From NCBI GenBank assembly GCA_942491855.1, contig CALOCL010000025.1, forward strand, positions 66,910 to 130,909: a stretch of 64,000 nt of DNA, written 5' to 3'. The first letter of the stretch is position 1. Each line of letters starts with the position of its first letter. Positions 1-34,994 of the stretch are shown here, piece after piece. The stretch comes from an uncultured Bacteroidales bacterium (lineage in GTDB: Bacteria > Bacteroidota > Bacteroidia > Bacteroidales > GCA-2711565). The position numbers and the translations under genes are program-made. Under the pieces are notes generated by a model. It was not told the origin of the DNA. It saw only the letters and a program-made list of their open reading frames with translations, and searched no databases.

Positions 1-3000
1 ACTTCCATTATCGATAGGCGAGTAAGAATGAAAAACACCTTCGCTATCGGCTCTAAAATATTCAGAATGATTAACCGAATAAGCCCTGTCGGCATTTAAT
101 TCAATTTTAAAACCCGGGAATGGTTCGAGCGATGCCCTCATGGTTAAGTTTGTTGTTTTTTTAGTCGCATAAGGTTGATTAAGTAAGGTATCAACTGAAA
201 GCCATCCATACCGAACCGCATCATTTCGAATATCCCTTTGATCACCGAAGACAAACCCAATACCAGGAGCAAGGCTGGTTGGGGTATCACTTTCAGTGCC
301 AGTATTCGATTGGTATCTCCATGAATTACCAATAGATGTAGGTTCCGGATGAAAACCGGGAATAAATGTTCCGCTAATTTCAGAATAATTGAAAGATGCC
401 CGCTTCACTCCCATCAATACTTTCAAAATATTATCGGTCACCAGTTTTAAATAATTAACCCGATTGATGGGTTTTTCAGTTGTATCTCCGCGCATTACCT
501 CATGTTGTACATTTATTCCAGCAGCCGCCTGATTTCTGTTTTGAACCCTCCTTTTAGGCTGATTAAGTGACTTAAAATAAGGGATCTTTTCGTATAGTTT
601 TACAAAATTAAAATCTCCGGTAAACTGAATCTGAGCCGAGTTTTCAATCTGATTTCCAAACTGATCCTGAAGTGAGCGTGGTGATGCACCCCAATTAAAC
701 GTGCCTTGATAGTTAACCTGTGAACTCACCCAATCGAGAATGGGGATTTTTTGCAAAGGAAGCGTATAATTTGCCTGCAATATCTGATCGTATCTGTTGA
801 TACTTCCCAATCTCCCAATCTCCTTAAATATTTCGGAACGATAGGCTTTATATTCTTCATCCCCCTTCTCAGGATTACCTTGTGGTTCATCGATATAGGC
901 TGTTGCATTTGCTCTAAAATCAAGTCTTAATGACTGGGATAAATCAAATTTTATGTTGTAATTTCTATTCCAATCCCACTTTTTCACATAAAAGGTTTCC
1001 ATCGGAACATCTCCCCGGCTTTTATTCCTCAATGTTCTTTCATTGTGTTCCCTAAACATATCCGTTCGGAAGGATATTAATTTAGGCGTGAGATAAAAAT
1101 TGAAATCCTGAATCAATTTCAGATAGCTTGATTTCGCCAAAAATTTTGATTTTGCAAAAGGTTTAACGGGTTTTGGTGTATTTGAAAAATTATACCCAAA
1201 TCCACCACGATATGCTTTTTTCAAATCATATTCCACATCAATATTTCGAGAATAAATTTCGGAATATGCGTAAGAAAGGCTTAAGTTTTCAACATCGTAA
1301 ATTTTGCTTTTTGATCCATCAAGCTTGTCTTTACGAACATTCATTAAATTCAAATTTTTGCGTTGAACATAATCGACTGTAATTTTAATCAGGGAATCGC
1401 GCTGATCTTGCGTTTCAAATGAATCTAATTCATCTTTCAATTTCACGTCAGGATCAAGTGGATTGAATTGTGGGGTGCTTTGCATTTCGGAATAATCGAA
1501 ATGCAACGGAATACGTATCCCTGATTTTTCTGGGAAAAATTTCCCCAATTCCATATCCGTACTAAAATCGAAAGAGGTGACCGCCTCCTTGAAAGTTTCA
1601 TTAACCCGTTGTTCAAGACTACCAAATCCGGCAGAGTTATGACTTCCCATAAAAGTAACTCTTCCTAAATCGGCAAGATTTGCTGAAATACGCGCGGTGG
1701 CAGCCCATCCGCCTTTATTACTAAAATCGGTTAGGCGCATTTCATTCACCCAAACCTCAGCACTTTTTGGTAACCCATCATCACCGGCGGCCGAATTTAC
1801 CTGCTTCGGGTTTCTAACTCCGACTAAAATGGCTTTGACATCACTAATACTAGGCATACCAATTACGGTAACTTTTGCATTCCCATCGTAAACTACAAAT
1901 GGGATCGAGTTACTTAGATTTGAATTGGGATCGCGCATCGCAATGTTTCGCTGTTGTTTAATGTCAACCAGCTTTTCTAAATCAATACTGAAGCTGTTAT
2001 CCTCAGGCCAAATGGCATCGGGATCGGCTGCTGTGGTACCCCAAGGGGTAAAGTTCAGTGGGATTTCATATTCGTAATAATTTTCTGTAAAATCAGCTCC
2101 GAAACGCATAAAGATACTGAGTTCACCTTTTTGCAATTCCTCCGATTCAATCATCTTTTCAGCATGAACAAACATCTTTAGATTTTTATACTGCCGGAAG
2201 TCAAAATCGGTGGTTTTATATACGCCTCTTGCATCACCGTCTTCCAGGTTATCGACCTTCAAAACCATCGACTGCTCATTTCGACGGATGATATCGGTAG
2301 TAGCAATATTTATTTCTCTTTCAATACCAGGAGGTACCACATAAGGTACCGGATACCTTTTCCCGTTTTCCTCAATATTTACGGCTGTTACGTCAAAAGT
2401 TGTTTCACTTTGCAAATCAATTGGAACGGTGGTTTCCTCGCCAGGTATTAAAGAGTTGTTAAATCTACGCCATTCACCTCTGACAAGTTCTAGCGTAGCA
2501 AATCTTAGAACGACAGGCCGCTCAAAATCGTTCATAAACATTCGTAAAAATCGTATGGATTTGAAATCCTGAATGTTTCCGATTACTTGATCAGGTTGGC
2601 TGATCGGAATCTTAAACTGATACCATTTGGTATTCTTCAAATTTCCGTTTGGTAATTGATGTGAAGTTGCTTCATAAATGTCGGTGATATAATTTTCACC
2701 CACATTCATTTTTAATTTATCCAATTCTATTTCATATTGAAAATAACGCTCTGCTTCACTCAAAGTATTGTCGTAATTGATATCTTCAACATTGGGCATT
2801 GCTGTTGCAGCAGTTGGATAATTTTCCCGATTCTGATCGCTGGATGGCGAATTTTTATCAGGATTATTGAAGTTTTTATACCGCTCTAAAATACTTGCAT
2901 ACTTATTATCATTATCAAAATCAGTCCCTCTGAAATAATGATAATTATCTGAGGCAGGGTCTTCCATCGATTTCAGGAAGGCATTTGAATTGGTTCCGAA

Positions 3001-6000
3001 ATTATTTTGAATTTTATTCAGATAATCGTGCTTACCGGATACACTATTAAAAAACGAACGTTCATCATCATCACTTAGGCCATCATATCCGACATCCTGA
3101 AAAACACGGGTCCCTGCTTGATTACTGAATGATTCAACCAGAGATTGCAAACTAGGAACCCTTCCCCAAATCGTTGTATCAACATTAACTACTTCCTCGC
3201 TGGTCGGTAAGCCATTTTCAAAACTTTTTCTTGAATCTCTTAAAATATCCTCCGAAATATCACCTAAATTAAAATACAGTTTTCCGTTATTTGTGGCGTC
3301 TTCAGTAAATGGATCCATCAGCCAAAACTCGATATACTCAACATTGGTAGCTTCAAAATCGGTTGATTCGATTTTGCGCATCACCCCACCCCATCTTGAA
3401 TTAGGATCGTTTAGCTCTCCTTCCTGATTAATTCCGGCAGTTAACCCTCCAACCGGATCCACATCATAATTATAAGGCCCTTTTTCCTTGGGATAAAAAG
3501 CCATGTTCAGGATGGGAATATTAGTTGGAATACCGTTAGGTATATCCTTATTCGGGAAAACTTCAGTTTCGAGTACTTGTCGTACACTGTTTTTCGACAA
3601 TTCGTTGTTATCGATATTGGGTGGTTTTAGGTTTGTTTTCCGATCATAAAAAAGTGGATCGATGATATACCATGCAAATTTGGCTCTGTTTTTACCATAG
3701 TTAATTCCTTCATTGGGGGCAGCTTCCGGGAAAATATCAAATTGACCCTGGGGAGTACTGGCCAATAACCATGCGCCAAAATTCTTCAGATCGAGGGTGG
3801 ATTTACTTCCTTCAAAATCGTCGATGTAGGAAGTTCCGGTTTTACCGATGGCTTTTGAATGTCCAGGAATAAAATGTGCAAATTCACCATCAATATTAAT
3901 CATTGATTTTTCCTTGGTACTGAAAAATGGCAGTTTATCAACCAGCTTCGTTAGCAAGCGGGATTCTTCTTCAAAATTGAAATTGATGCCCCAAATGGTA
4001 TTTGAAATTGGATCATCGCCATAATTCGTTTTTTGCGTGAGCGGTCGTTCGTTCAAATTAATGATGGTTGCTCCAATATTGGTATTCTCTTTTAAGGCGT
4101 AATTGATGTGCGTTCCCATCATTCGTTTGGTTTGCAGGTTGAACATGGAGTTGCTCTCAAGCGATACCTTAATCGGGGTTCCTGAGTTTAAAATTCCTTC
4201 GTTAATAATTCTCACCCTTCCCAAGGTATAATCAACCGTGTAATCAACATTTTCGGTTAAAGGAATTCCTCCTGCCGAAACCACTACAGAACCCTGGGGG
4301 ACATTCAAGGCATTGAGCGAAATTTCATTGCTTGTGGAAGATTTGTAAATCCCCTCTAAAATAAATTTATTTTTTTCTGGATATTGTTCGGCTCCTGTTT
4401 TTGTTAAGGTGTAGAGCGAATCAAAAGCATACTTATTTGCTAATTCAGGATCAGTGAACTGCTTTCGTAAATCTTTCCCAAAAGGTTCGAGTACCGGAAA
4501 AAAGATACGTCCGTTCGACGACTCAATGGTACCACCATTTATTGCAGCTCCATCGATGAAGTCGAAAATTCCATCAGGTGGTGGATTCAATTGTGGATTC
4601 AAATTATCCATATTCATCAACCGAATTAATGGAACCCCTTTTATCTTTTCTCCACCTTCGGTTAAATAGGCCGTTGGGATCCCATTTTTATTCCCTGAAT
4701 ACAAAATATTAAAGATGAAATCTTCAGGATTAACCTGATATGCCCTGATTGAATAAACATTTTTCATCATCAAATCCCACATTTTACTACGGGTATTTAT
4801 GGAGGTACTCTTCAACATTTTCACCATTAACACCTGGGGTGCATTAATACCCTGATCTGTGAACTCCCCAACCTGATAAACCTTGTTATCGCCAATTACG
4901 GTGTATTGATAGGCAACAGCCAATGTTTGGTCAGAATTTAGTGTGGTATTCAAAGAGATAAAACCGAGCCTGCTGTTAAAGGTATATTCCGAAGTTCTTA
5001 GTTTCCGGGCACTTTCAATTTTCTCGAAATCTTCACCGGCAATAAAATACCCTGATGAACCAATACCAAGTGGGTCATTTTTTAAATAATTTGAAACCGA
5101 ATTTATATCACGGAGTTGCGCAGTATCGAATCGATTTAAGAGATCATTCGAATAATTTGATGGTAACCTACCACCCAATTGGGGGTTGATAATATTGCTA
5201 TTGGGGCTGTATTCACCCAAATCAGCCAATGCAACAATATTTCGATTATCCGTTACTGCGGGTCCAATATTTGTAACCCAGACTTCCATGCGGGTAATAT
5301 TTACATTTGATGCGATGACAGGGAGGTTTTTTAAGGCTTCGTTATATCTGTTACTTGGCTTTCCTTCACTGTCAGTCACATCTTCTCTAAAATATTGCCC
5401 AATAAAAAAGTGCCGATTTTCTTCGTAATCTACAGCCGTTAAGTTAAATTCATTGGTTTGTGCTCCCCCCTGAACAGTAATTGAAGATGTTTGACTTTTT
5501 TGCTGAGAAAATACACTCGTGATGGTTGCCCTGCCAAATTGCAATTTGGTTTTAATTCCGAATAAACTTTGGCTACCTGTAATCAGTGTAGTGGGTAAAG
5601 GTAAATTTACATCACCGGCTTCAATCAATTTAACAATTTCATCTTCCTTGCCTTCGTATTTTAAGGCAAGTTTGTTTTCAAAATCAAAGGTGGATTCGGT
5701 ATTGTAATTTGTTTTGAATTGAATTTTATCACCAATATTGGCCAACACACTCATTTGAATTTTCTCTTTAAAATCAAAATCTGTGGTATGTCTTCTTCTC
5801 ACATCTAGCGTTTCATCTTTTCGGTTATTAGCCAGAACGCCAAAAGTTAATTCCGCCGAACCCTGCGGTCTGATGTCAATTAAGTCTCCTCCAAATACTT
5901 GATCGAGCACCTGATTTCCTGCATGCAAAGCCGGAATAATCCCTGCTCGGCTATCACCACTTGCCGTATTAATTCTTTGCTTCCAGTAATTGCTTTCCGA

Positions 6001-6372
6001 CTTTTTTGCCGCAAATTTTTGATAGTCGCTAAAACCCATGTTTAGCGGTGTGCGATAATTTAAATTACCCATCCTGCTAAAAAAAACATATTTATTCCCA
6101 TCCGGATTATAGGAAATCTGAGATTTTATATTTGATGGAGTTTTTAGAAAAAGGGGGCTTGTAAATTTATAATTGAAGGGATTAAAAAACTCTCTTTTAA
6201 ATGGGTAGTTTAATTTAAAAGCGGTTGAAGTGTCTTTAACTTGTAAAGGATTGTAATCAGAACCTTTGCCATCTTTTTCGACTGGATTCGCATTCAACCT
6301 TGGCGAAGCCAGACTGAAAATGAATATAAAAATCCACCCCGATAAAAAAATATGTTGTTTAGAAAAAATCAA
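1..6372 (-). CDS. sprA: SprA, T9SS/gliding-motility outer-membrane translocon; C-terminal part lies outside the window, about 2120 codons inside
   Basis: Hand translation of the minus strand from about 6372 gives one open frame. It starts with a signal-like LIFSKQHIFLSGWIFIFIFSLA, then ...DLIDIRPQGSAELTFG..., ...FKTNYNTESTFDFENKLALKYEGKEDEIVKLIEAGDVNLPL..TLITGSQSLFGIKTKLQFGRATITSVFSQQK... I recognise this as the conserved SprA N-terminal region. The same frame is still open at bases 60..1, and no competing ORF over 70 aa exists in 1-6400. There is no in-frame ATG after the upstream TAA, so the TTG start at 6372 is assumed. It is probably absent from the ORF track because it runs off the window. 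Confidence 0.8.
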   Translation of the reverse strand, partial: MIFSKQHIFLSGWIFIFIFSLASPRLNANPVEKDGKGSDYNPLQVKDTSTAFKLNYPFKREFFNPFNYKFTSPLFLKTPSNIKSQISYNPDGNKYVFFSRMGNLNYRTPLNMGFSDYQKFAAKKSESNYWKQRINTASGDSRAGIIPALHAGNQVLDQVFGGDLIDIRPQGSAELTFGVLANNRKDETLDVRRRHTTDFDFKEKIQMSVLANIGDKIQFKTNYNTESTFDFENKLALKYEGKEDEIVKLIEAGDVNLPLPTTLITGSQSLFGIKTKLQFGRATITSVFSQQKSQTSSITVQGGAQTNEFNLTAVDYEENRHFFIGQYFREDVTDSEGKPSNRYNEALKNLPVIASNVNITRMEVWVTNIGPAVTDNRNIVALADLGEYSPNSNIINPQLGGRLPSNYSNDLLNRFDTAQLRDINSVSNYLKNDPLGIGSSGYFIAGEDFEKIESARKLRTSEYTFNSRLGFISLNTTLNSDQTLAVAYQYTVIGDNKVYQVGEFTDQGINAPQVLMVKMLKSTSINTRSKMWDLMMKNVYSIRAYQVNPEDFIFNILYSGNKNGIPTAYLTEGGEKIKGVPLIRLMNMDNLNPQLNPPPDGIFDFIDGAAINGGTIESSNGRIFFPVLEPFGKDLRKQFTDPELANKYAFDSLYTLTKTGAEQYPEKNKFILEGIYKSSTSNEISLNALNVPQGSVVVSAGGIPLTENVDYTVDYTLGRVRIINEGILNSGTPIKVSLESNSMFNLQTKRMMGTHINYALKENTNIGATIINLNERPLTQKTNYGDDPISNTIWGINFNFEEESRLLTKLVDKLPFFSTKEKSMINIDGEFAHFIPGHSKAIGKTGTSYIDDFEGSKSTLDLKNFGAWLLASTPQGQFDIFPEAAPNEGINYGKNRAKFAWYIIDPLFYDRKTNLKPPNIDNNELSKNSVRQVLETEVFPNKDIPNGIPTNIPILNMAFYPKEKGPYNYDVDPVGGLTAGINQEGELNDPNSRWGGVMRKIESTDFEATNVEYIEFWLMDPFTEDATNNGKLYFNLGDISEDILRDSRKSFENGLPTSEEVVNVDTTIWGRVPSLQSLVESFSNQAGTRVFQDVGYDGLSDDDERSFFNSVSGKHDYLNKIQNNFGTNSNAFLKSMEDPASDNYHYFRGTDFDNDNKYASILERYKNFNNPDKNSPSSDQNRENYPTAATAMPNVEDINYDNTLSEAERYFQYEIELDKLKMNVGENYITDIYEATSHQLPNGNLKNTKWYQFKIPISQPDQVIGNIQDFKSIRFLRMFMNDFERPVVLRFATLELVRGEWRRFNNSLIPGEETTVPIDLQSETTFDVTAVNIEENGKRYPVPYVVPPGIEREINIATTDIIRRNEQSMVLKVDNLEDGDARGVYKTTDFDFRQYKNLKMFVHAEKMIESEELQKGELSIFMRFGADFTENYYEYEIPLNFTPWGTTAADPDAIWPEDNSFSIDLEKLVDIKQQRNIAMRDPNSNLSNSIPFVVYDGNAKVTVIGMPSISDVKAILVGVRNPKQVNSAAGDDGLPKSAEVWVNEMRLTDFSNKGGWAATARISANLADLGRVTFMGSHNSAGFGSLEQRVNETFKEAVTSFDFSTDMELGKFFPEKSGIRIPLHFDYSEMQSTPQFNPLDPDVKLKDELDSFETQDQRDSLIKITVDYVQRKNLNLMNVRKDKLDGSKSKIYDVENLSLSYAYSEIYSRNIDVEYDLKKAYRGGFGYNFSNTPKPVKPFAKSKFLAKSSYLKLIQDFNFYLTPKLISFRTDMFREHNERTLRNKSRGDVPMETFYVKKWDWNRNYNIKFDLSQSLRLDFRANATAYIDEPQGNPEKGDEEYKAYRSEIFKEIGRLGSINRYDQILQANYTLPLQKIPILDWVSSQVNYQGTFNWGASPRSLQDQFGNQIENSAQIQFTGDFNFVKLYEKIPYFKSLNQPKRRVQNRNQAAAGINVQHEVMRGDTTEKPINRVNYLKLVTDNILKVLMGVKRASFNYSEISGTFIPGFHPEPTSIGNSWRYQSNTGTESDTPTSLAPGIGFVFGDQRDIRNDAVRYGWLSVDTLLNQPYATKKTTNLTMRASLEPFPGFKIELNADRAYSVNHSEYFRADSEGVFHSYSPIDNGS

Positions 6373-6439
6373 AGAATGAAAAAGATTTTAAAACATAAAA
6401 TGAAACGATCATGATTTTTTTAATCCCAAAAAGATAAAG

Positions 6440-7024
6440 TTAAAATGATTTCAATACATTTTTAATCAATTCTTCAACACTAAGGTCGCCTCCATTAGTT
6501 TCAAGAACTTTATCAATCGCTTTGGATGCAAGGTTTCTGTTAAAACCAAGAACTACCAAACCAGATAACGCTTCTTCTTTTTTCGTATTGTGTGAAAACG
6601 GAACATTTTCAACCATTCCATCTTCCTTCTCTAATTTGTCTTTTAAATCAATGATAATCCTTTGTGCTGTCTTGCCACCAATACCTTTAACAGATTGCAG
6701 GGCTGGGAAATTGCTATTCACAATATTCGAGTAAAGCTCGTCGGGGTTCATTGATGATAAAATGAGTCGGGCGATGTTGGCTCCCACACCTGAGACAGAA
6801 ATCAAATGAACAAAAAGCTTTCGCTCGGTTATTGTATGAAACCCAAATAAAAGCTGGGCATCTTCTCTAACCACAAAATGGGTGTGCAATTTGCAATTTT
6901 GTAATCCTTCAATTTGCGAATAGGTATGTAATGAAATATGAATTTGAAAACCAATTCCGTTCACATCAATCACCACATAAGTTGGGGTTTTTTCTGCTAT
7001 TTTTCCCTCGATATACGAATACAT
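6440..7024 (-). CDS. ruvA: Holliday junction DNA helicase subunit RuvA
   Basis: 194 aa. N-terminal MYSYIEGKI...V..DVNGIGF.I OB-fold, helix-hairpin-helix LISVSGVGANIA and VKGIGGKTAQRII. The ruvA-sprA neighbourhood is typical of Bacteroidota. Confidence 0.95.
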   Translation of the reverse strand: MYSYIEGKIAEKTPTYVVIDVNGIGFQIHISLHTYSQIEGLQNCKLHTHFVVREDAQLLFGFHTITERKLFVHLISVSGVGANIARLILSSMNPDELYSNIVNSNFPALQSVKGIGGKTAQRIIIDLKDKLEKEDGMVENVPFSHNTKKEEALSGLVVLGFNRNLASKAIDKVLETNGGDLSVEELIKNVLKSF

Positions 7025-30500: not shown

Positions 30501-30537
30501 AAAAGCCATTTAGGTTTTACATCTAAAATAGCTTTTT
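30501..30537 (-). terminator. Probable ancestral terminator of tRNA-Arg, now separated from the gene by the islet
   Basis: Imperfect hairpin AAAAGCCATTTAG/CTAAAATAGCTTTT with flanking A and T runs. It lies just downstream (minus sense) of the displaced tRNA 3' fragment. Confidence 0.4.
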
Positions 30538-30580
30538 TGAGTTTGCTTTTGTCTTCTTTAAAAAATGTTTTAATCATTAA

Positions 30581-30623
30581 GTGACTCCGAAGGGATTCGA
30601 ACCCCTAACCCTCTGATCCGAAG
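30581..30623 (-). repeat. Displaced 3' half of tRNA-Arg (att-type direct repeat, identical to 34536-34578)
   Basis: GTGACTCCGAAGGGATTCGAACCCCTAACCCTCTGATCCGAAG occurs identically at both positions. Identity ends inside the anticodon loop. Confidence 0.95.
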
Positions 30624-30683: not shown

Positions 30684-30878
30684 TATTATATAACTTGTCC
30701 ACGATTTGTAACTGTTTTACATAAAACCTTACACATTTTTGTGAATCAGCACCTTAAAGCATTAGCCAAAACACTTGACTTACCAAAAGATATCTCCACC
30801 TGCTGGGTACACCACTTTTTTACTACTAACTCTTTTCCTAAAGGAGCTTCTATGGAACGAGTTTTATATTATCTATGA
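30684..30878 (+). pseudogene. C-terminal fragment of a tyrosine recombinase (integrase) gene
   Basis: Hand translation gives ...VLHKTLHIFVNQHLKALAKTLDLPKDISTCWVHHFFTTNSFPKGASMERVLYYL*. It parallels the Bacteroidota integrase region ..SNQK.N.YLKEIA...I.K.IT.H.ARHTFAT..L..G.SIE.VS..LGH. The N-terminal roughly 300 codons and the catalytic Tyr region are missing. Confidence 0.6.
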
Positions 30879-31262: not shown

Positions 31263-32225
31263 CTATTTAGTAATGAGTTTAGGTTGTTTGAACAATTTAT
31301 AGTTTTCGATTACATTAAACTTGTACATTGTCTTTGCTTCATCAGACAAAAATGATTTGTCAACCATTGCCAATATTTTACTCTCATTACTGTTAAAGTA
31401 ATCAATAGTTTTATCTATAATAGTATCTTTTATACTTATGCGTCGTCCAAACTCAATAAAATCATCGCTATTATAGATGTATTTTTCTCCTAATGGCAAA
31501 CTGGTTTGTTCAAATTCTGCAAATAGATTTAATGCTAATAAACTATCCGCAAGATGAATTTTAGTATTCATCAAATCGTATGATGGAGACAGCATCATAT
31601 CTCCGTCAGCAGTTTCCAACAATGAAATGTTTTTTAAATGAACATCACCATTTCCTGTTATGAAATTAAATATCAGAATGCGAAGAAAATCAACTCTATT
31701 TAATGGGCTTAACCATTCCCCAACATCTTGATATGATTTTGATTTATACTTATGAGCGGCTTGTAAAACAGATCCGAAATCTTCCTGATTTAATTTTATC
31801 CCTTTATTATTATAATCAAATCGTCTAGTGATATATGCAGGCATACCATTAGCAAATTTTACAAAAGCACATTCTGCGATTTTTATGCCAAAAACCTGTT
31901 TGGCGATTTGCATAGTCACATGTTCATTTGCAGGTGATTGATCTGGGTTGTCAAATCTTGATAATATTGGTTTAATAATGTACTGTGACTTTTCATCTAC
32001 ATCCATTTTGGGAATTAATTCAATTCCGCGTGGTTTACCAATAAATCCTTTTCGTTGAACTCCTGATATGCTAAATCCCATTGGTTGGCCATCAATCCTT
32101 TTTGAGATATCTTCCCAATTAAATTTAAGTTGAGGGTTGACCTTAGAACGGTCAAATAGTATAGTTTCACAGGATGAACAAAATCCACTTATGTTATCTT
32201 TAAGACATCCATTACATTGTGCCAT
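31263..32225 (-). CDS. hipT: HipT-like Ser/Thr kinase toxin (HipA C-terminal kinase core without the N-subdomain)
   Basis: 320 aa. Gly-rich loop GFSISGVQRKG (SIS motif as in E. coli O127 HipT), catalytic NGDVHLKNISL, Mg-binding SPSYDLMNT. It overlaps the upstream gene by 14 nt. Confidence 0.85.
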   Translation of the reverse strand: MAQCNGCLKDNISGFCSSCETILFDRSKVNPQLKFNWEDISKRIDGQPMGFSISGVQRKGFIGKPRGIELIPKMDVDEKSQYIIKPILSRFDNPDQSPANEHVTMQIAKQVFGIKIAECAFVKFANGMPAYITRRFDYNNKGIKLNQEDFGSVLQAAHKYKSKSYQDVGEWLSPLNRVDFLRILIFNFITGNGDVHLKNISLLETADGDMMLSPSYDLMNTKIHLADSLLALNLFAEFEQTSLPLGEKYIYNSDDFIEFGRRISIKDTIIDKTIDYFNSNESKILAMVDKSFLSDEAKTMYKFNVIENYKLFKQPKLITK

Positions 32226-32556
32226 GTTTAATGTTTTTTACAGTTATTGCTCCTATTGTATCGTATTGACAAGTTAATGCTAATAAACTCCATTCATCAC
32301 TTGGATCAATTCTTAAAGCTTTACAAATCTGTTTTCGATTTTCACCTTCGCTTAGTATGGATTTGAAATAGTGAAATAATTCCTTGGAATGATAAGTTTT
32401 TATCTCCTTTGGCATATTTACCGAAATCGGCCTCGTATTAACATTTTCAACAAATGCATCATCATATTCAAAATGAAAACCCTCATTATCAACCCAAAGT
32501 TCCCCTGCCTTAATATTTCCTTTGTAAATGACTTCTAGCTTGTTTCCGATTTTCAT
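32212..32556 (-). CDS. hipS: HipS-like protein (free-standing HipA N-terminal subdomain)
   Basis: 114 aa. L.V...G...G.L.....G..F.Y...F......P.S..MP, then FF.S.L.EG..R and a D..GA-type C-terminal end, matching the HipA N-terminal 'couple_hipA' region. ATGA overlap with hipB. Confidence 0.8.
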   Translation of the reverse strand: MKIGNKLEVIYKGNIKAGELWVDNEGFHFEYDDAFVENVNTRPISVNMPKEIKTYHSKELFHYFKSILSEGENRKQICKALRIDPSDEWSLLALTCQYDTIGAITVKNIKHGTM

Positions 32557-32771
32557 GTTTTTGAATTATGTCTTTTAACTTCTACTTGTATTTCCAAATT
32601 GAGATATTCAAAAATGTTTTGTAAGACCTCTAATGTTGGGTTTTTAACACCCCTTTCTATTTCTGAGATGGTAGTTTTAGATATACCTGTGAGGTCAGCT
32701 AAATCTCTAATGGTTAGTCCTAATACCATTCTTCTTCTTTTTATTATTTCTCCAATTTCTTTTTTTTCCAT
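32553..32771 (-). CDS. hipB: HipB-like XRE-family HTH antitoxin/repressor
   Basis: 72 aa. IKRRRMVLGLTIRDLADLTGISKTTISEIERGVKNPTLEVL is a canonical Cro/C1 HTH. Confidence 0.85.
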   Translation of the reverse strand: MEKKEIGEIIKRRRMVLGLTIRDLADLTGISKTTISEIERGVKNPTLEVLQNIFEYLNLEIQVEVKRHNSKT

Positions 32772-32778
32772 TTCACTG

Positions 32779-32976
32779 TACCATTATATTGGTAAATATT
32801 TATCAAAAATACTCAATTTGTTTGATAATGTCAATTTTGTACCAGTATAATGATAAATATCTGTCAACAAGTTTAAATCAACGTAAATTGTCAATAAAAT
32901 ACCAGTATAATGGTACGCGAGAGATGAAATATTGAAAAAGAACCTTAATTGAAGGATTTGTACCACTATATTGGTA
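32779..32976. promoter_or_regulatory. Four palindromic operators TACCA-N6-TGGTA spaced about 60.5 bp apart, flanking the hipBST promoter
   Basis: Sites: 32779-32794 TACCATTATATTGGTA; 32840-32855 TACCAGTATAATGATA; 32900-32915 TACCAGTATAATGGTA; 32961-32976 TACCACTATATTGGTA. The minus-strand -7 box TATTTTTG (32804-32811) lies between sites 1 and 2. Confidence 0.75.
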
Positions 32977-33240: not shown

Positions 33241-34338
33241 TTATTTTTCAGTTTGTTTGAATATTTCATTTGAATATATTGATTCTACTTCCCCTTCATT
33301 TTTAAAATAAATTATGACATCCTTATCAATTCCAGAGTGAAATATTTTGACCTGTTTTCTTGAATTGTCTATATAATAGAAGATATTTCTCCGCTCATCA
33401 TCAGCAGTTTTTACTAAATAATGTGTTCTATTCTTTTCATTTACAATCGAAGTATAAATATGAGCATTTAAAGTTCCTTGATTTAGCTCAATCCCTGATA
33501 CGTTATAAACATAGTCTGAGAATTTTTGTTTGATATACTTAATAGAGTAAGTTTTATCCATTTCAAGTATTGTGGAAAAATCTTTTAAATGATCAATTAC
33601 TGGTTTGCCATAACTTTTCTTTTCTAATTTTTCTTTCCTTTCTTCAATATAACTCTTGAAATTAGTTTTAATAAATGAAAGAAATGATTTTATTAAGTAC
33701 GACGATTGATTATTTATAGGGTCAATAAGTCCATTACTTTCATCATTAAAAATTTTAATTAGTTTATTAAAGAGAGAGTTATCTTCATTATTCCAATAAA
33801 GATGACATTTTCTTGAATAATCAAGCTTACTAAATGAGAATTCTGAAATATTCGACGGTGAAGGAGTTATATAAAGCAAATAAATTTCAGGATCCAACTT
33901 ACACTCATGATAGAAGTTTTTCAAACCTTTTAACTCTTCTTCTAATTGAGAATCATTCTTATTTATAGATGTATCTGTAATTTTGTTTTCAAGACATATT
34001 GCATATAAAACTTCGTCAGTTCTATTATCAATAATTTCAATTAAAACATCGATATCCCGTCTTTTATTCCTACCAACATTATTAAAATACACTGTCATTT
34101 CGGGAATAATATTTACTGAGTATCCAGAATATTTAGAGAGGTCAGCAATTCTGTTTTCAAATTGAATTTTCAATAAAAAATTACTATCAACTAATAGAAA
34201 TTCATTTAATAATTCTTGCAACAAAAGACTTGATAAACCATGGTCTTCATTAGGATTTAGCATGTAAGCTAAGAAAGAACTTACATTTGGTTCATTAATT
34301 GAGCCATCATTTGATGATAGAATACGGAAAATATTCAT
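33241..34338 (-). CDS. PD-(D/E)XK-type nuclease-like protein with uncharacterised C-terminal half
   Basis: 365 aa. N-terminal NIF.IL....SINEPNVSSFLAYMLNPNEDHGL, then RRDIDVLIEI ... AICLENKI (D ... E-x-K arrangement), as in PDDEXK-family proteins common in defence islands. I cannot assign residues from about 215 to 365. Confidence 0.55.
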   Translation of the reverse strand: MNIFRILSSNDGSINEPNVSSFLAYMLNPNEDHGLSSLLLQELLNEFLLVDSNFLLKIQFENRIADLSKYSGYSVNIIPEMTVYFNNVGRNKRRDIDVLIEIIDNRTDEVLYAICLENKITDTSINKNDSQLEEELKGLKNFYHECKLDPEIYLLYITPSPSNISEFSFSKLDYSRKCHLYWNNEDNSLFNKLIKIFNDESNGLIDPINNQSSYLIKSFLSFIKTNFKSYIEERKEKLEKKSYGKPVIDHLKDFSTILEMDKTYSIKYIKQKFSDYVYNVSGIELNQGTLNAHIYTSIVNEKNRTHYLVKTADDERRNIFYYIDNSRKQVKIFHSGIDKDVIIYFKNEGEVESIYSNEIFKQTEK

Positions 34339-34536
34339 AATAAATGGTTAGTGGTATATAATCAATTTGGTTTAAACTTTTAGGTCAGAATCTCAGAGAG
34401 TATTAACTCAAAGTTAATTGAATTTGTGGAAGTAAAATGAGGAAGTGGTTATTTATTTTCAATCAAATCCTTGCTCAAACCTTGCTTATTAAAAAAGGCT
34501 CCAAAACTTGATGTCTTGAAACCCTTATTGTAGTAG

Positions 34537-34610
34537 TGACTCCGAAGGGATTCGAACCCCTAACCCTCTGATCCGAAGTCAGATATTCTATCCAGTTGAA
34601 CTACGGAGCC
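34537..34610 (-). tRNA. tRNA-Arg (anticodon UCG)
   Basis: GGCTCCGTAGTTCAACTGGATAGAATATCTGACTTCGGATCAGAGGGTTAGGGGTTCGAATCCCTTCGGAGTCA folds as a cloverleaf with a 7-bp acceptor, anticodon loop CTTCGGA and T-loop TTCGAAT. Confidence 0.93.
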
Positions 34611-34826: not shown

Positions 34827-34845
34827 ATTCAAAAAGAATATTTTA

Positions 34846-34880
34846 AAAAGCCTTCCGAAAATTCGGAAGGCTTTTTTTTT
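34846..34880 (+). terminator. Attenuator terminator 1
   Basis: GCCTTCCG-loop-CGGAAGGC (extendable to 10 bp) followed by T9. No upstream plus-strand gene needs it. Confidence 0.8.
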
Positions 34881-34965: not shown

Positions 34966-34994
34966 AAGCCTGCTTTAACGAGTAGGCTTTTTTT
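34966..34994 (+). terminator. Attenuator terminator 2
   Basis: AAGCCTGC (34966-34973) pairs with GTAGGCTT (34982-34989, one G-U) and runs into T7. Confidence 0.65.

What the first reader, a model, noticed from the sequence alone, without database searches (positions are those of the whole stretch)
31263..32771. Split-kinase HipB-HipS-HipT tripartite toxin-antitoxin operon in a Bacteroidota islet
- **Gene organisation.** Three overlapping genes (a 4-nt ATGA overlap and a 14-nt overlap) encode the following.
  - An XRE HTH protein of 72 aa.
  - A 114-aa protein equivalent to the N-terminal subdomain of HipA.
  - A 320-aa HipA kinase core with Gly-rich loop SISGVQRK, catalytic NGDVHLKN and SPSYDLMNT.
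- **Comparison.** This is the HipBST architecture characterised in E. coli O127:H6. There, HipS rather than HipB neutralises the kinase, the kinase targets TrpS, and the two serines of the SIS loop are autophosphorylated. Both serines are conserved here (S52 and S54).
- **Why it matters.** As far as I know, the family is experimentally characterised only in Enterobacteria. The target and trigger of a Bacteroidota copy on a mobile remnant are open questions, and such kinases are increasingly linked to phage defence.
Basis: partly seen in the sequence, partly recalled or inferred. Interest (0 to 1): 0.62.

Follow-up and report, generated by a model that had tools for sequence, protein, structure and literature searches.

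The report
Ordinary HipBST kinase toxin-antitoxin operon
This is an intact three-gene HipB-HipS-HipT kinase toxin-antitoxin cassette of the Legionella-like type, sitting in a small decayed island inserted into a tRNA-Arg gene; it is a new member of a known family, with a probable zinc-binding cap on the kinase and four phased repressor sites as its only unusual details.

Summary
Three minus-strand genes overlap by 4 and 14 nt: hipB 32553-32771, hipS 32212-32556 and hipT 31263-32225.

- **Family.** HMMs, PDB sequence searches and two AlphaFold models all place them in HipBST. HipT matches HipT of Legionella and E. coli at TM about 0.8. HipS matches the solved HipS structures.
- **Subtype.** All three proteins are closer to the Legionella type than to the E. 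coli O127 type, so TrpS cannot be assumed as target.
- **Prior knowledge.** HipBST is also characterised in Legionella and Haemophilus. Its spread into Bacteroidota is already published (PMC10653801).
- **New details.**
  - The roughly 1.7-kb cassette recurs at 74-85% protein identity in more than 45 species of several phyla, in unrelated contexts, with dN/dS about 0.1.
  - Four TACCAWTATAWTGGTA palindromes at -23, -84, -145 and -205 flank a conserved Bacteroidota -7 box.
  - The HipT mini-domain carries an all-or-none CxxC...[C/H]xxC knuckle.
  - HipS has Glu72 where E. coli HipS has its essential Trp65.
  - The 3.95-kb islet is missing in two congeners.

Verdict: a new member of a known kind, of modest interest.

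The parts
32779..32976 (-). Array of four 16-bp palindromic boxes, the candidate HipB operators. They lie at 32779-32794, 32840-32855 (one half-site mismatch), 32900-32915 and 32961-32976, spaced 61, 60 and 61 bp apart. The consensus is TACCAWTATAWTGGTA.
   Evidence: In the window, 0 of 100 shuffles reach the observed count. In 34 related cassettes the boxes recur at -23, -84, -145 and -205 from the hipB ATG. That gives 60 sites in 12.1 kb of upstream DNA against 13 in 440 kb elsewhere. They occur nowhere else in the 2.27-Mb genome.
32804..32811 (-). Bacteroidota-type -7 promoter box TATTTTTG (TAnnTTTG), between operators 1 and 2. It starts 40 nt upstream of the hipB ATG.
   Evidence: Read from the sequence. 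TAnnTTTG lies at the same offset in 32 of 35 cassettes. That TAnnTTTG is the Bacteroidota -7 consensus is established knowledge and was not tested here.
32553..32771 (-). hipB: a 72-aa XRE-type helix-turn-helix protein, the predicted repressor of the operon.
   Evidence: Pfam HTH_3 scores 3.1e-15. NCBIfam couple_hipB TIGR03070 scores 2.3e-14, below its cut-off. PDB HipB(Lp) 8ezt scores 2.1e-7 over the full length, and HipB(Ec O127) is not among the hits.
32212..32556 (-). hipS: a 114-aa protein equivalent to HipA N-subdomain 1, the predicted antitoxin. It overlaps hipB by 4 nt.
   Evidence: Pfam Couple_hipA scores 5.4e-19. PDB hits are HI_0666 at 5e-8, HipS(Lp) at 2e-6 and HipS(Ec) at 4.5e-3. 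The AlphaFold model has pLDDT 82.5. Its top five PDB folds are all HipS proteins, at TM 0.69-0.87.
32341..32343 (-). Codon for HipS Glu72 (in SEGEN). It occupies the position of the essential active-site plug Trp65 of E. coli O127 HipS.
   Evidence: Pairwise HMMER alignments to 7ab3_B, 7vkb_B and 7czo agree on this position. Glu is kept in the 12 clade-1 and clade-2 HipS of the alignment; the two distant HipS have Val or Ser. The role of Trp65 is from PMC10627512.
31263..32225 (-). hipT: a 320-aa HipA-type Ser/Thr kinase core that lacks N-subdomain 1, the predicted toxin. It overlaps hipS by 14 nt.
   Evidence: Pfam HipA_C scores 1.4e-33. The AlphaFold model has pLDDT 91.9 and pTM 0.92. Foldseek gives HipT(Lp) 1e-20 and HipT(Ec) 2e-20, both full length. 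A family profile scores HipT(Lp) 6e-79, HipT(Ec) 8e-64 and HipA 9e-25.
32169..32216 (-). Codons for Cys4-x2-Cys7-x8-Cys16-x2-Cys19, a probable zinc knuckle in the N-terminal mini-domain of HipT.
   Evidence: Among 84 non-redundant relatives, the three variable ligand positions are all present in 47, all absent in 29 and mixed in only 8. Positions 1-40 of the model have pLDDT 95-97, and the second Cys pair sits at the start of helix 17-24. Metal binding itself was not tested.
32049..32072 (-). Gly-rich loop SISGVQRK (residues 52-59), with the two candidate autophosphorylation serines S52 and S54.
   Evidence: Position confirmed. SIS is the commonest form, in 53 of 84 relatives. The loop is the only low-confidence stretch of the model besides residues 244-246 (pLDDT below 50 at residues 50-54), which fits a mobile loop.
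31629..31652 (-). Catalytic motif NGDVHLKN (residues 192-199). Asp194 aligns with E. coli HipT Asp210.
   Evidence: Alignment to 7ab3_C. N192, D194, H196, K198 and N199 are at least 90% conserved in 92 relatives.
31563..31589 (-). Mg-binding motif SPSYDLMNT (residues 213-221). Asp217 aligns with E. coli HipT Asp233.
   Evidence: Alignment to 7ab3_C. Y216 and D217 are at least 90% conserved.
34535..34578 (.). att repeat copy inside the intact tRNA-Arg(TCG) gene (34536-34610, minus strand). It marks one border of the 3.95-kb islet.
   Evidence: tRNA found. The direct repeat is a perfect 44 bp.
30580..30623 (.). Second att repeat copy, a displaced 3' part of tRNA-Arg. It marks the other border of the islet.
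   Evidence: Repeat found. In congeners G005 and G002, the flank 30530-30579 is followed directly by an intact tRNA-Arg and asnA, with no islet.
30684..30878 (+). Remnant of a tyrosine integrase, about 64 codons. The Arg of the ARH box is replaced (WVHHFFTT).
   Evidence: The fragment has no Pfam hit by itself. It is 70% identical over 40 residues to residues 340-379 of an intact 415-aa integrase. That integrase carries Phage_int_SAM_5 and Phage_integrase domains and sits at the same att site in congener G007.

Best explanation
This is a tripartite HipBST toxin-antitoxin module of the Legionella-like (FCB-wide) subtype.

**Shown here**
- The three genes, their overlaps, their families and their predicted folds.
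- Intact kinase motifs in HipT.
- A conserved promoter with a four-box palindrome array.
- Strong purifying selection on hipS and hipT.
- A location in a decayed integrative islet at tRNA-Arg.

**Inferred by homology to the E. coli O127 and L. pneumophila systems**
[quoted passage not shown] An aminoacyl-tRNA synthetase is the default guess, but its identity is unknown.
- HipS binds the kinase N-lobe where HipA carries its N-subdomain 1. It holds the Gly-rich loop (S52-I-S54) in an inactive conformation unable to bind ATP, and so acts as the antitoxin.
- HipB dimers bind the TACCAWTATAWTGGTA boxes. Box 1 covers the predicted transcription start and box 2 lies just upstream of the -33 region. 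Binding there represses the operon without neutralising the kinase.
- S52 and S54 are autophosphorylation sites that tune activity and HipS control.

**Differences from the studied systems**
- HipS has Glu72 in place of the Trp65 plug of E. coli. The details of inhibition are therefore probably closer to the Legionella loop-remodelling mode.
- The HipT mini-domain is probably stabilised by a Cys4 zinc site.
For: - **Gene anatomy and motifs:**
- **Family HMMs above cut-off:**
- **PDB sequence matches to HipT, HipS and HipB of solved HipBST complexes:**
- **HipT model:** high confidence, with the HipT proteins as its best folds at TM 0.80-0.83.
- **HipS model:** its best folds are the HipS proteins.
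- **Family profile:** it scores HipT(Lp) 6e-79, then HipT(Ec) 8e-64, then HipA 9e-25.
- **Catalytic residues:** D194 and D217, and the other near-invariant residues, are all present.
- **Conservation of the layout:** all three genes are found in 47 of 55 related genomic loci; in most of the other eight the stored DNA starts or ends inside the cassette. It also recurs in metagenome contigs.
- **Selection:** dN/dS is 0.11 for hipT and 0.10 for hipS, and all 21 ORFs examined are open; one hipT is shorter, at 294 aa.
- **Operators and promoter:** both are conserved in position across genomes, and the operators are unique in this genome.
- **Literature:** HipS as antitoxin, HipB as repressor only, and the serine loop come from PMC6581861, PMC10627512, PMC9325769 and PMC10653801.
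Against: - No function was tested. Toxicity, neutralisation by HipS, HipB-DNA binding, phosphorylation and zinc binding are all inferred.
- HipS lacks the Trp that is essential in the E. coli system.
- Identity to the studied proteins is low, at 21-26% for HipT and 25-31% for HipS in the structural alignments.
- No HipS-HipT complex model could be made with the tools available.
- The target is unknown even for the closest studied relative.
Confidence: 0.85

Rival explanations
1. The module is primarily an abortive-infection or phage-defence device. Phage infection would release or activate HipT, for example by shutting off host transcription so that HipS or HipB decays, or through a phage trigger protein. 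The kinase would then stop translation before the phage completes its cycle. This concerns the biological role and is compatible with the HipBST mechanism above.
For: - The islet also carries a PD-(D/E)XK protein that matches the PADLOC defence candidate PDC-S26 at 8.5e-9.
- HipT and HipS give weak hits to the PADLOC candidates PDC-M03A and PDC-M03B, at 2.5e-6 and 1.6e-6.
- The cassette is patchily distributed, moves horizontally and often lies near tRNA genes.
Against: - The PADLOC hits are weak and go to candidate systems only.
- The PD-(D/E)XK gene is not linked to the cassette in any of 55 related loci.
- The neighbours of the cassette elsewhere are ordinary metabolic genes.
- I found no report of defence activity for HipBST in the papers read.
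Confidence: 0.25
2. The module follows classical two-component logic. HipB, alone or together with HipS, would be the real antitoxin. HipS would then be only a detached structural lid that the kinase needs for folding or activity.
For: - In hipBA systems, HipB is the antitoxin.
- HipS here lacks the inhibitory Trp65 of E. coli HipS.
- In E. coli O127, HipB augments neutralisation by HipS (PMC8262856).
Against: - HipB here is a minimal 72-aa HTH protein. It has no C-terminal extension such as the one E. coli K-12 HipB uses to reach HipA (sequence; PMC10627512).
- In both studied HipBST systems, including the Legionella one whose HipS also lacks Trp, HipS alone neutralises HipT and HipB does not.
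- hipS is as strongly constrained as hipT.
Confidence: 0.07
3. This is not a toxin-antitoxin pair at all. HipS and HipT would assemble into a constitutive, non-toxic signalling kinase, a HipA simply encoded in two pieces, with HipB as an ordinary autoregulator.
For: - HipS plus HipT together equal one HipA.
- Strong purifying selection is also what a housekeeping-type regulator would show.
Against: - The distribution is patchy and horizontal. There is one copy in this genome, none in most congeners, and unrelated contexts across phyla.
- It sits in an integrative islet.
- All characterised HipT kinases are growth-arresting toxins.
Confidence: 0.05

Closest known systems
Legionella pneumophila HipBST (Lpg2368-Lpg2369-Lpg2370; PDB 7vkb, 7vkc, 7wcf, 8ezr-8ezt)
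   Same: - The order is the same, hipB-hipS-hipT.
- The proteins are of similar size: HipB 72 against 76 aa in the PDB chain, HipS 114 against 102 aa, and HipT 320 against about 312 aa.
- It is the best PDB match for HipT by sequence (2.5e-20) and by family profile (6e-79), and the best HipB match among Hip systems (2.1e-7).
- Its HipS also lacks the Trp plug, with Ile at that position.
- HipB binds several evenly spaced inverted repeats upstream of hipB (PMC10653801).
- That paper reports this subtype as widespread in the FCB superphylum.
   Different: - Identity is only about 24-26% for HipT and 31% for HipS.
- The Gly-rich loop here is SIS, with two serines as in E. coli. Legionella has SVQ with one.
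- There are four operators of a different sequence with about 60.5-bp centre spacing here. Legionella has three, with 53-bp gaps.
- The mini-domain here has a Cys4 knuckle. The Legionella one belongs to the form without the ligands.
E. coli O127:H6 HipBST (PDB 7ab3-7ab5)
   Same: - The tripartite layout is the same.
- The HipT fold matches at TM 0.81-0.83 over the full length, including the N-terminal mini-domain.
- The SIS loop has both serines (S57/S59 there, S52/S54 here).
- The catalytic Asp (D210 there, D194 here) and the Mg-binding Asp (D233 there, D217 here) align.
- The HipS fold matches at TM 0.77-0.87.
   Different: - HipS Trp65, essential there, is Glu72 here.
- HipB there has an extra N-terminal helix (residues 1-35), while HipB here is a minimal 72-aa HTH.
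- E. coli HipB is not among the PDB hits at E 1e-3 or better.
- Sequence scores are lower than to the Legionella proteins.
- Its target TrpS cannot be transferred to this copy.
Haemophilus influenzae HipBST (HipS = HI_0666, PDB 7czo)
   Same: It is the best sequence match for HipS (5.2e-8), and the fold matches at TM 0.69-0.74.
   Different: Its HipS keeps the Trp (VPEGW). It belongs to the gammaproteobacterial group whose toxicity is rescued by E. coli TrpS (PMC10653801).
E. coli K-12 HipBA
   Same: The kinase core fold and motifs are shared, and HipS corresponds to HipA N-subdomain 1. Both have an upstream HTH repressor gene and four palindromic operators with five-base half-sites. The four TATCC-N8-GGATA operators of hipBA are from my own knowledge; PMC10653801 states only that HipBA repeats have five nucleotides.
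   Different: HipA is one 440-aa polypeptide, HipB is the antitoxin, and there is no mini-domain. HipA scores far below HipT (E 3e-6 against 2.5e-20; TMq 0.63-0.66).

Membership tests
HipBST tripartite toxin-antitoxin family | A three-gene operon in the order hipB-hipS-hipT, tightly packed | tested here: met
   The genes overlap by 4 nt and 14 nt on one strand. All three genes are found in 47 of 55 related loci, and in most of the others the stored DNA is cut inside the cassette.
HipBST tripartite toxin-antitoxin family | HipT is a HipA-type kinase core without N-subdomain 1 but with a short N-terminal mini-domain | tested here: met
   HipA_C covers residues 51-274 of 320. The fold matches full-length HipT(Ec) and HipT(Lp) at TM 0.80-0.83, against HipA at TMq 0.63-0.66. 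The profile scores HipT far above HipA.
HipBST tripartite toxin-antitoxin family | [quoted passage not shown] | tested here: met
   SISGVQRK, D194 and D217 are present and align with the E. coli HipT residues. All near-invariant family positions are kept.
HipBST tripartite toxin-antitoxin family | HipS is a small protein homologous to HipA N-subdomain 1 | tested here: met
   Couple_hipA scores 5.4e-19 and TIGR03071 scores 1.5e-19. PDB HipS proteins match by sequence and by fold.
HipBST tripartite toxin-antitoxin family | HipB is an XRE-type HTH protein that represses the operon through upstream operators | tested here: inconclusive
   The HTH domain is shown. Four phased palindromes are conserved in position across genomes and unique in this genome. 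Binding and repression were not tested.
HipBST tripartite toxin-antitoxin family | Ser/Thr beside the Gly-rich loop is autophosphorylated | not testable with these tools
   S52 and S54 are present, and SIS is the majority form in the family. Phosphorylation needs mass spectrometry.
HipBST tripartite toxin-antitoxin family | HipT is toxic and HipS, not HipB, neutralises it | not testable with these tools
   This is inferred from PMC6581861 and PMC9325769. It needs co-expression assays.
E. coli O127-type HipBST subclade | HipS Trp65 plug inserted beside the Gly-rich loop | tested here: not met
   The position is Glu72 here, and Glu is kept in the 12 clade-1 and clade-2 HipS aligned. [quoted passage not shown] This therefore excludes the subclade mechanism, not the family.
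E. coli O127-type HipBST subclade | The target is TrpS | not testable with these tools
   All three proteins score higher to the Legionella type. The target of that type is neither TrpS nor GltX.
Classical HipBA | A single HipA polypeptide of about 440 aa that carries its own N-subdomain 1 | tested here: not met
   The N-subdomain and the kinase core are separate ORFs with a stop codon and a frame change between them.
hipJS / hipIN (kinase-first split Hip modules, Gerdes et al. 2021) | The kinase gene precedes the HipS-like gene, and there is no HipB | tested here: not met
   The order here is HTH, then HipS, then kinase.

The most novel reading that the evidence does not exclude
The Cys4 (in relatives Cys3-His) knuckle in the HipT mini-domain may be more than a structural staple. 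The mini-domain lies directly before the Gly-rich loop, and the E. coli structure paper calls it of unknown significance. The knuckle could be a zinc- or redox-sensitive latch that couples oxidative or metal stress to release of HipS, or it could be the element that recognises the still unknown substrate. Together with the Glu72-for-Trp65 change in HipS, this would define a third mode of HipT control, one that the two structurally studied systems have lost.
Probability: 0.15. Interest if true: 0.6.

Novelty: new member of a known kind. Interest (0 to 1): 0.3.

Why it matters
It adds little to the concept, because HipBST is an established family and its presence in Bacteroidota has been published.

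The locus has practical value as a clean, intact representative of a very conserved cassette. That cassette shows 74-85% protein identity across Bacteroidia (Bacteroidales, Flavobacteriales, Chitinophagales), Ignavibacteria and Ca. Neomarinimicrobiota. One copy is in a cultured strain, Flavivirga aquimarina KCTC 52353.

This clade would be a good system for three open questions about the Legionella-type HipBST:
- What the kinase phosphorylates.
- How a HipS without the Trp plug inhibits it.
- What the N-terminal mini-domain, and its probable zinc site, is for.

The sharply defined four-operator promoter is also a ready-made test case for HipB cooperativity.

Tried and rejected
- **Gerdes et al. 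2021 Table S1.** The stored copy is cut before the hipBST rows. I could not tell whether their 48 HipT include Bacteroidota. The table does show that 34 of the 1,239 kinases come from that phylum.
- **Cys geometry.** The model coordinates are not exposed to the Python box, so Cys-Cys distances could not be measured. The zinc site rests on covariation and secondary structure.
- **Complex prediction.** No HipS-HipT multimer could be predicted with the single-chain tool.
- **Integrase fragment.** Pfam found nothing in the 64-codon fragment. This was resolved by comparing it with the intact integrase of congener G007.
- **Linkage to the PD-(D/E)XK neighbour.** Rejected, because there is no homologue in 55 related loci.
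- **A dedicated tRNA-Arg element carrying the cassette.** Rejected.
  - Relatives sit in unrelated contexts, and where a tRNA is nearby it is a different one: Gln, Ala, Val, Asn or Leu.
  - DNA homology stops at the outermost operator and at the hipT stop codon.
- **A named defence system.** PADLOC gives only weak hits to the candidates PDC-M03A and PDC-M03B.
- **NCBIfam.** It has no model that HipT passes (YjjJ at E 0.0017 only). couple_hipB is below its cut-off.
- **A wider HipB regulon.** Rejected, because the palindrome occurs only at this promoter in the genome.
Full report
**Observation.** The window carries three minus-strand ORFs at exactly the stated coordinates.
- hipB lies at 32553-32771 (72 aa), hipS at 32212-32556 (114 aa) and hipT at 31263-32225 (320 aa).
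- The overlaps are ATGA and ATGGCACAATGTAA.
- The quoted motifs sit at residues 52-59 (SISGVQRK), 192-199 (NGDVHLKN) and 213-221 (SPSYDLMNT).
- Pfam gives HTH_3 at 3.1e-15, Couple_hipA at 5.4e-19 and HipA_C at 1.4e-33, all above the curated cut-offs.
- NCBIfam agrees for HipS (TIGR03071, 1.5e-19). It gives couple_hipB for the HTH protein below its cut-off, and it has no model that HipT passes.

**Family assignment.**
- *HipT by sequence.* The best solved relatives are HipT of Legionella pneumophila (2.5e-20) and of E. coli O127:H6 (5.8e-15). HipA comes far behind at 3e-6.
- *HipS by sequence.* It hits H. influenzae HI_0666 (5e-8), HipS(Lp) (2e-6) and HipS(Ec) (4.5e-3).
- *HipB by sequence.* It hits HipB(Lp) over its full length (2.1e-7), and not the E. 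coli O127 HipB.
- *HipT by fold.* An AlphaFold model built on a 92-sequence alignment has pLDDT 91.9 and pTM 0.92. Foldseek returns only HipT structures in the first 11 places, at TM 0.80-0.83 for the full-length chains. HipA follows at TMq 0.63-0.66.
- *HipS by fold.* A model with pLDDT 82.5 returns HipS(Ec), HipS(Lp) and HI_0666 first, at TM 0.69-0.87. The N-subdomain of HipA comes next.
- *Profile.* A profile of the kinase family scores HipT(Lp) at 6e-79, HipT(Ec) at 8e-64 and HipA at 9e-25.
- *Catalytic residues.* The catalytic Asp (D194, aligned to E. coli D210) and the Mg-binding Asp (D217, aligned to D233) are present. So is every other position that is at least 90% conserved in the family.

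The HipBST reading stands. The locus is closer to the Legionella subtype than to the E. coli one.

**What is already known.**
- HipBST was defined in E. coli O127. HipT homologues from H. influenzae and Tolumonas were tested in the same study (PMC6581861).
- Two groups characterised the Legionella system (PMC9325769, PMC10653801).
  - HipS is the antitoxin and remodels the P-loop so that ATP cannot bind.
  - HipB binds three evenly spaced operators.
  - Neither TrpS nor GltX rescues toxicity, so the target is unknown.
- PMC10653801 states that HipBST(Lp) homologues are widely distributed in the Fibrobacterota-Chlorobiota-Bacteroidota superphylum.

A Bacteroidota copy is not in itself new. I found no experimental work on one.

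**Distribution.**
- *This genome.* It is a 2.27-Mb, 78%-complete assembly with a single HipA_C gene.
- *Same genus.* Among 12 genomes, only one has a HipT-type gene, at 40% identity.
- *Same order.* HTH-HipS-HipT cassettes at 29-42% identity occur patchily.
- *Close relatives.* The large protein collection holds more than 120 clusters at 78-87% identity.
- *More distant relatives.* In the 50%-identity library the next full-length neighbours are at 53% and then about 40% (one truncated hit aligns at 59% over its kinase half). That library has 607 hits at E 1e-10 or better.
- *Species genomes.* One-per-species genomes give 55 loci.
  - A tight clade at 74-85% covers Bacteroidales, Marinilabiliales, Flavobacteriales, Saprospiraceae, Ignavibacteria and Ca. 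Neomarinimicrobiota. It includes the cultured Flavivirga aquimarina KCTC 52353.
  - A second clade lies at 61-64%.
- *Layout.* All three genes are found in 47 of the 55 loci; in most of the rest the stored DNA is cut inside the cassette. HipB, HipS and HipT are conserved together.
- *Extent of the cassette.* DNA similarity to the window is 70-82% within the close clade and 66-71% to the second clade. It starts at the outermost operator and stops at the hipT stop codon.
- *Neighbours.* The neighbouring genes are unrelated from genome to genome. The moving unit is thus a cassette of about 1.7 kb.
- *Selection.* dN/dS is 0.11 for hipT and 0.10 for hipS over 231 pairs. All 21 ORFs examined are open; one hipT (L064) is shorter, at 294 aa. 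Both partners are maintained by selection.

**Regulatory region.**
- Four 16-bp palindromes lie directly upstream of hipB at 32779, 32840, 32900 and 32961, spaced 61, 60 and 61 bp apart. In the window, 0 of 100 shuffles reach the observed count.
- In 34 cassettes of the close clade the boxes recur at -23, -84, -145 and -205 from the ATG. That is 60 sites in 12.1 kb of upstream DNA against 13 in 440 kb of the rest.
- The consensus is TACCAWTATAWTGGTA.
- The second clade, whose HipB is only about 50% identical, lacks these boxes. A repressor and its site diverging together would give this pattern.
- The palindrome occurs nowhere else in the genome.
- A Bacteroidota-type -7 box (TAnnTTTG; here TATTTTTG at 32804-32811) lies at the same offset in 32 of 35 cassettes.
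- Box 1 therefore covers the predicted transcription start, and box 2 lies just upstream of the -33 region.
- This parallels the three HipB(Lp) operators and the four hipBA operators of E. coli K-12. The motif and the spacing are its own.

**Two departures from the studied systems.**
1. *Glu72 in HipS.* All three pairwise alignments put HipS Glu72 (SEGEN) at the position of E. coli Trp65 (PEGW).
   - The Glu is kept in both close clades. Other Bacteroidota HipS have Trp, Val, Ser or His, and Legionella has Ile.
   - Inhibition here is thus unlikely to use the Trp plug.
2. *A Cys knuckle in HipT.* HipT begins with C4-x2-C7-x8-C16-x2-C19.
   - Among 84 non-redundant relatives, the three variable ligand positions (C7, C/H16, C19) are all present in 47, all absent in 29 and mixed in 8. 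C4 is nearly invariant.
   - The E. coli and Legionella proteins belong to the ligand-less form.
   - In the model, residues 1-40 have pLDDT 95-97. The second pair lies at the start of helix 17-24, a treble-clef-like layout.
   - I found no mention of zinc in the Hip papers read, beyond one incidental occurrence of the word.
   - Earlier notes of this scan made the same point on other genomes. They are not independent evidence.

**Context.**
- *Borders.* The operon lies in a 3.95-kb low-GC islet, at 25-33% GC against about 40% in the flanks. A perfect 44-bp direct repeat bounds it at 30580-30623 and 34535-34578. The repeat is the 3' part of tRNA-Arg(TCG) at 34536-34610.
- *Empty site.* Two congeners have the empty site. 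The flank 30530-30579 runs straight into an intact tRNA-Arg and then asnA.
- *Integrase.* A third congener has a different insert at the same site, with an intact 415-aa tyrosine integrase. Window 30684-30878 keeps a 40-residue stretch 70% identical to residues 340-379 of it, with the conserved Arg replaced.
- *Neighbour.* The islet's other gene (33241-34338) is a PD-(D/E)XK protein that matches the PADLOC candidate PDC-S26. It is not linked to the cassette elsewhere.

**Mechanism and confidence.**
- I put 0.85 on this being a functional HipBST module. In this reading HipT is a growth-arresting Ser/Thr kinase. HipS binds the N-lobe and keeps the Gly-rich loop inactive. HipB represses transcription at the four boxes, and S52 and S54 are autophosphorylation sites.
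- The anatomy, folds, conservation and selection are shown. Toxicity, neutralisation, DNA binding, phosphorylation and metal binding are inferred by homology.
- The target is open. An aminoacyl-tRNA synthetase is the family default, but the closest studied relative has an unidentified target.
- A role in phage defence is possible and compatible with this mechanism, but it is supported only by weak PADLOC hits and by the islet setting.

**Verdict.** The finding is real and correctly interpreted, but it is a new member of a known kind. The conserved operator array, the covarying zinc knuckle and the Trp-to-Glu change are modest, testable additions.

Noticed in passing
window 33241-34338 (-): A 365-aa PD-(D/E)XK_4 protein (Pfam 1e-4) shares the islet with hipBST. 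It matches the PADLOC defence candidate PDC-S26 at 8.5e-9. It has no homologue next to the cassette in 55 related loci.
   Followed up: partly
L010 7455-8942 and 8996-10535: One metagenome contig carries two convergent hipBST cassettes of different subfamilies, 54 bp apart. One is the 72/114/313-aa type found here. The other is a 66/106/335-aa type without the Cys knuckle, with Ser at the HipS Trp65 position.
   Followed up: partly
L077 (congener G007) 1904-6796: The same tRNA-Arg att site is occupied by a different insert. It starts with an intact 415-aa tyrosine integrase followed by a 681-aa histidine kinase. A patatin-like gene lies between the transporter gene and the att site. ARAGORN finds no intact tRNA there, so this is an integration hot spot.
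   Followed up: partly
L028 5350-5669; L044 5526-5669; L024 1456-1533: In three relatives, 80-320 bp of non-coding DNA is inserted between hipB and hipS. The L044 insert is bracketed by an inverted repeat (CCCTCATCATTGAGG ... CGATGATGAGGG) and looks like a miniature mobile element.
   Followed up: no
L053-L063 (second clade, HipT 61-64% identical): This sister clade keeps the three-gene layout and HipS Glu72 but lacks the TACCA-N6-TGGTA boxes. Its HipB is only 48-58% identical, which suggests that the repressor and its operator have diverged together. Its own operator was not sought.
   Followed up: no
L041 6001-6942: A cultured strain, Flavivirga aquimarina KCTC 52353, carries the cassette with HipT 83%, HipS 87% and HipB 74% identical. 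It is a possible native host for experiments.
   Followed up: no
L017, L026, L030, L034, L042, L055, L062: In 7 of 55 related loci a tRNA gene (Gln, Ala, Val, Asn or Leu) lies within about 1.3 kb of the cassette. This hints that the cassette often rides in tRNA-targeted islets of different specificity.
   Followed up: partly
My terminator scan also found two strong hairpins there, at 34845-34876 and 34966-34989.
   Followed up: no
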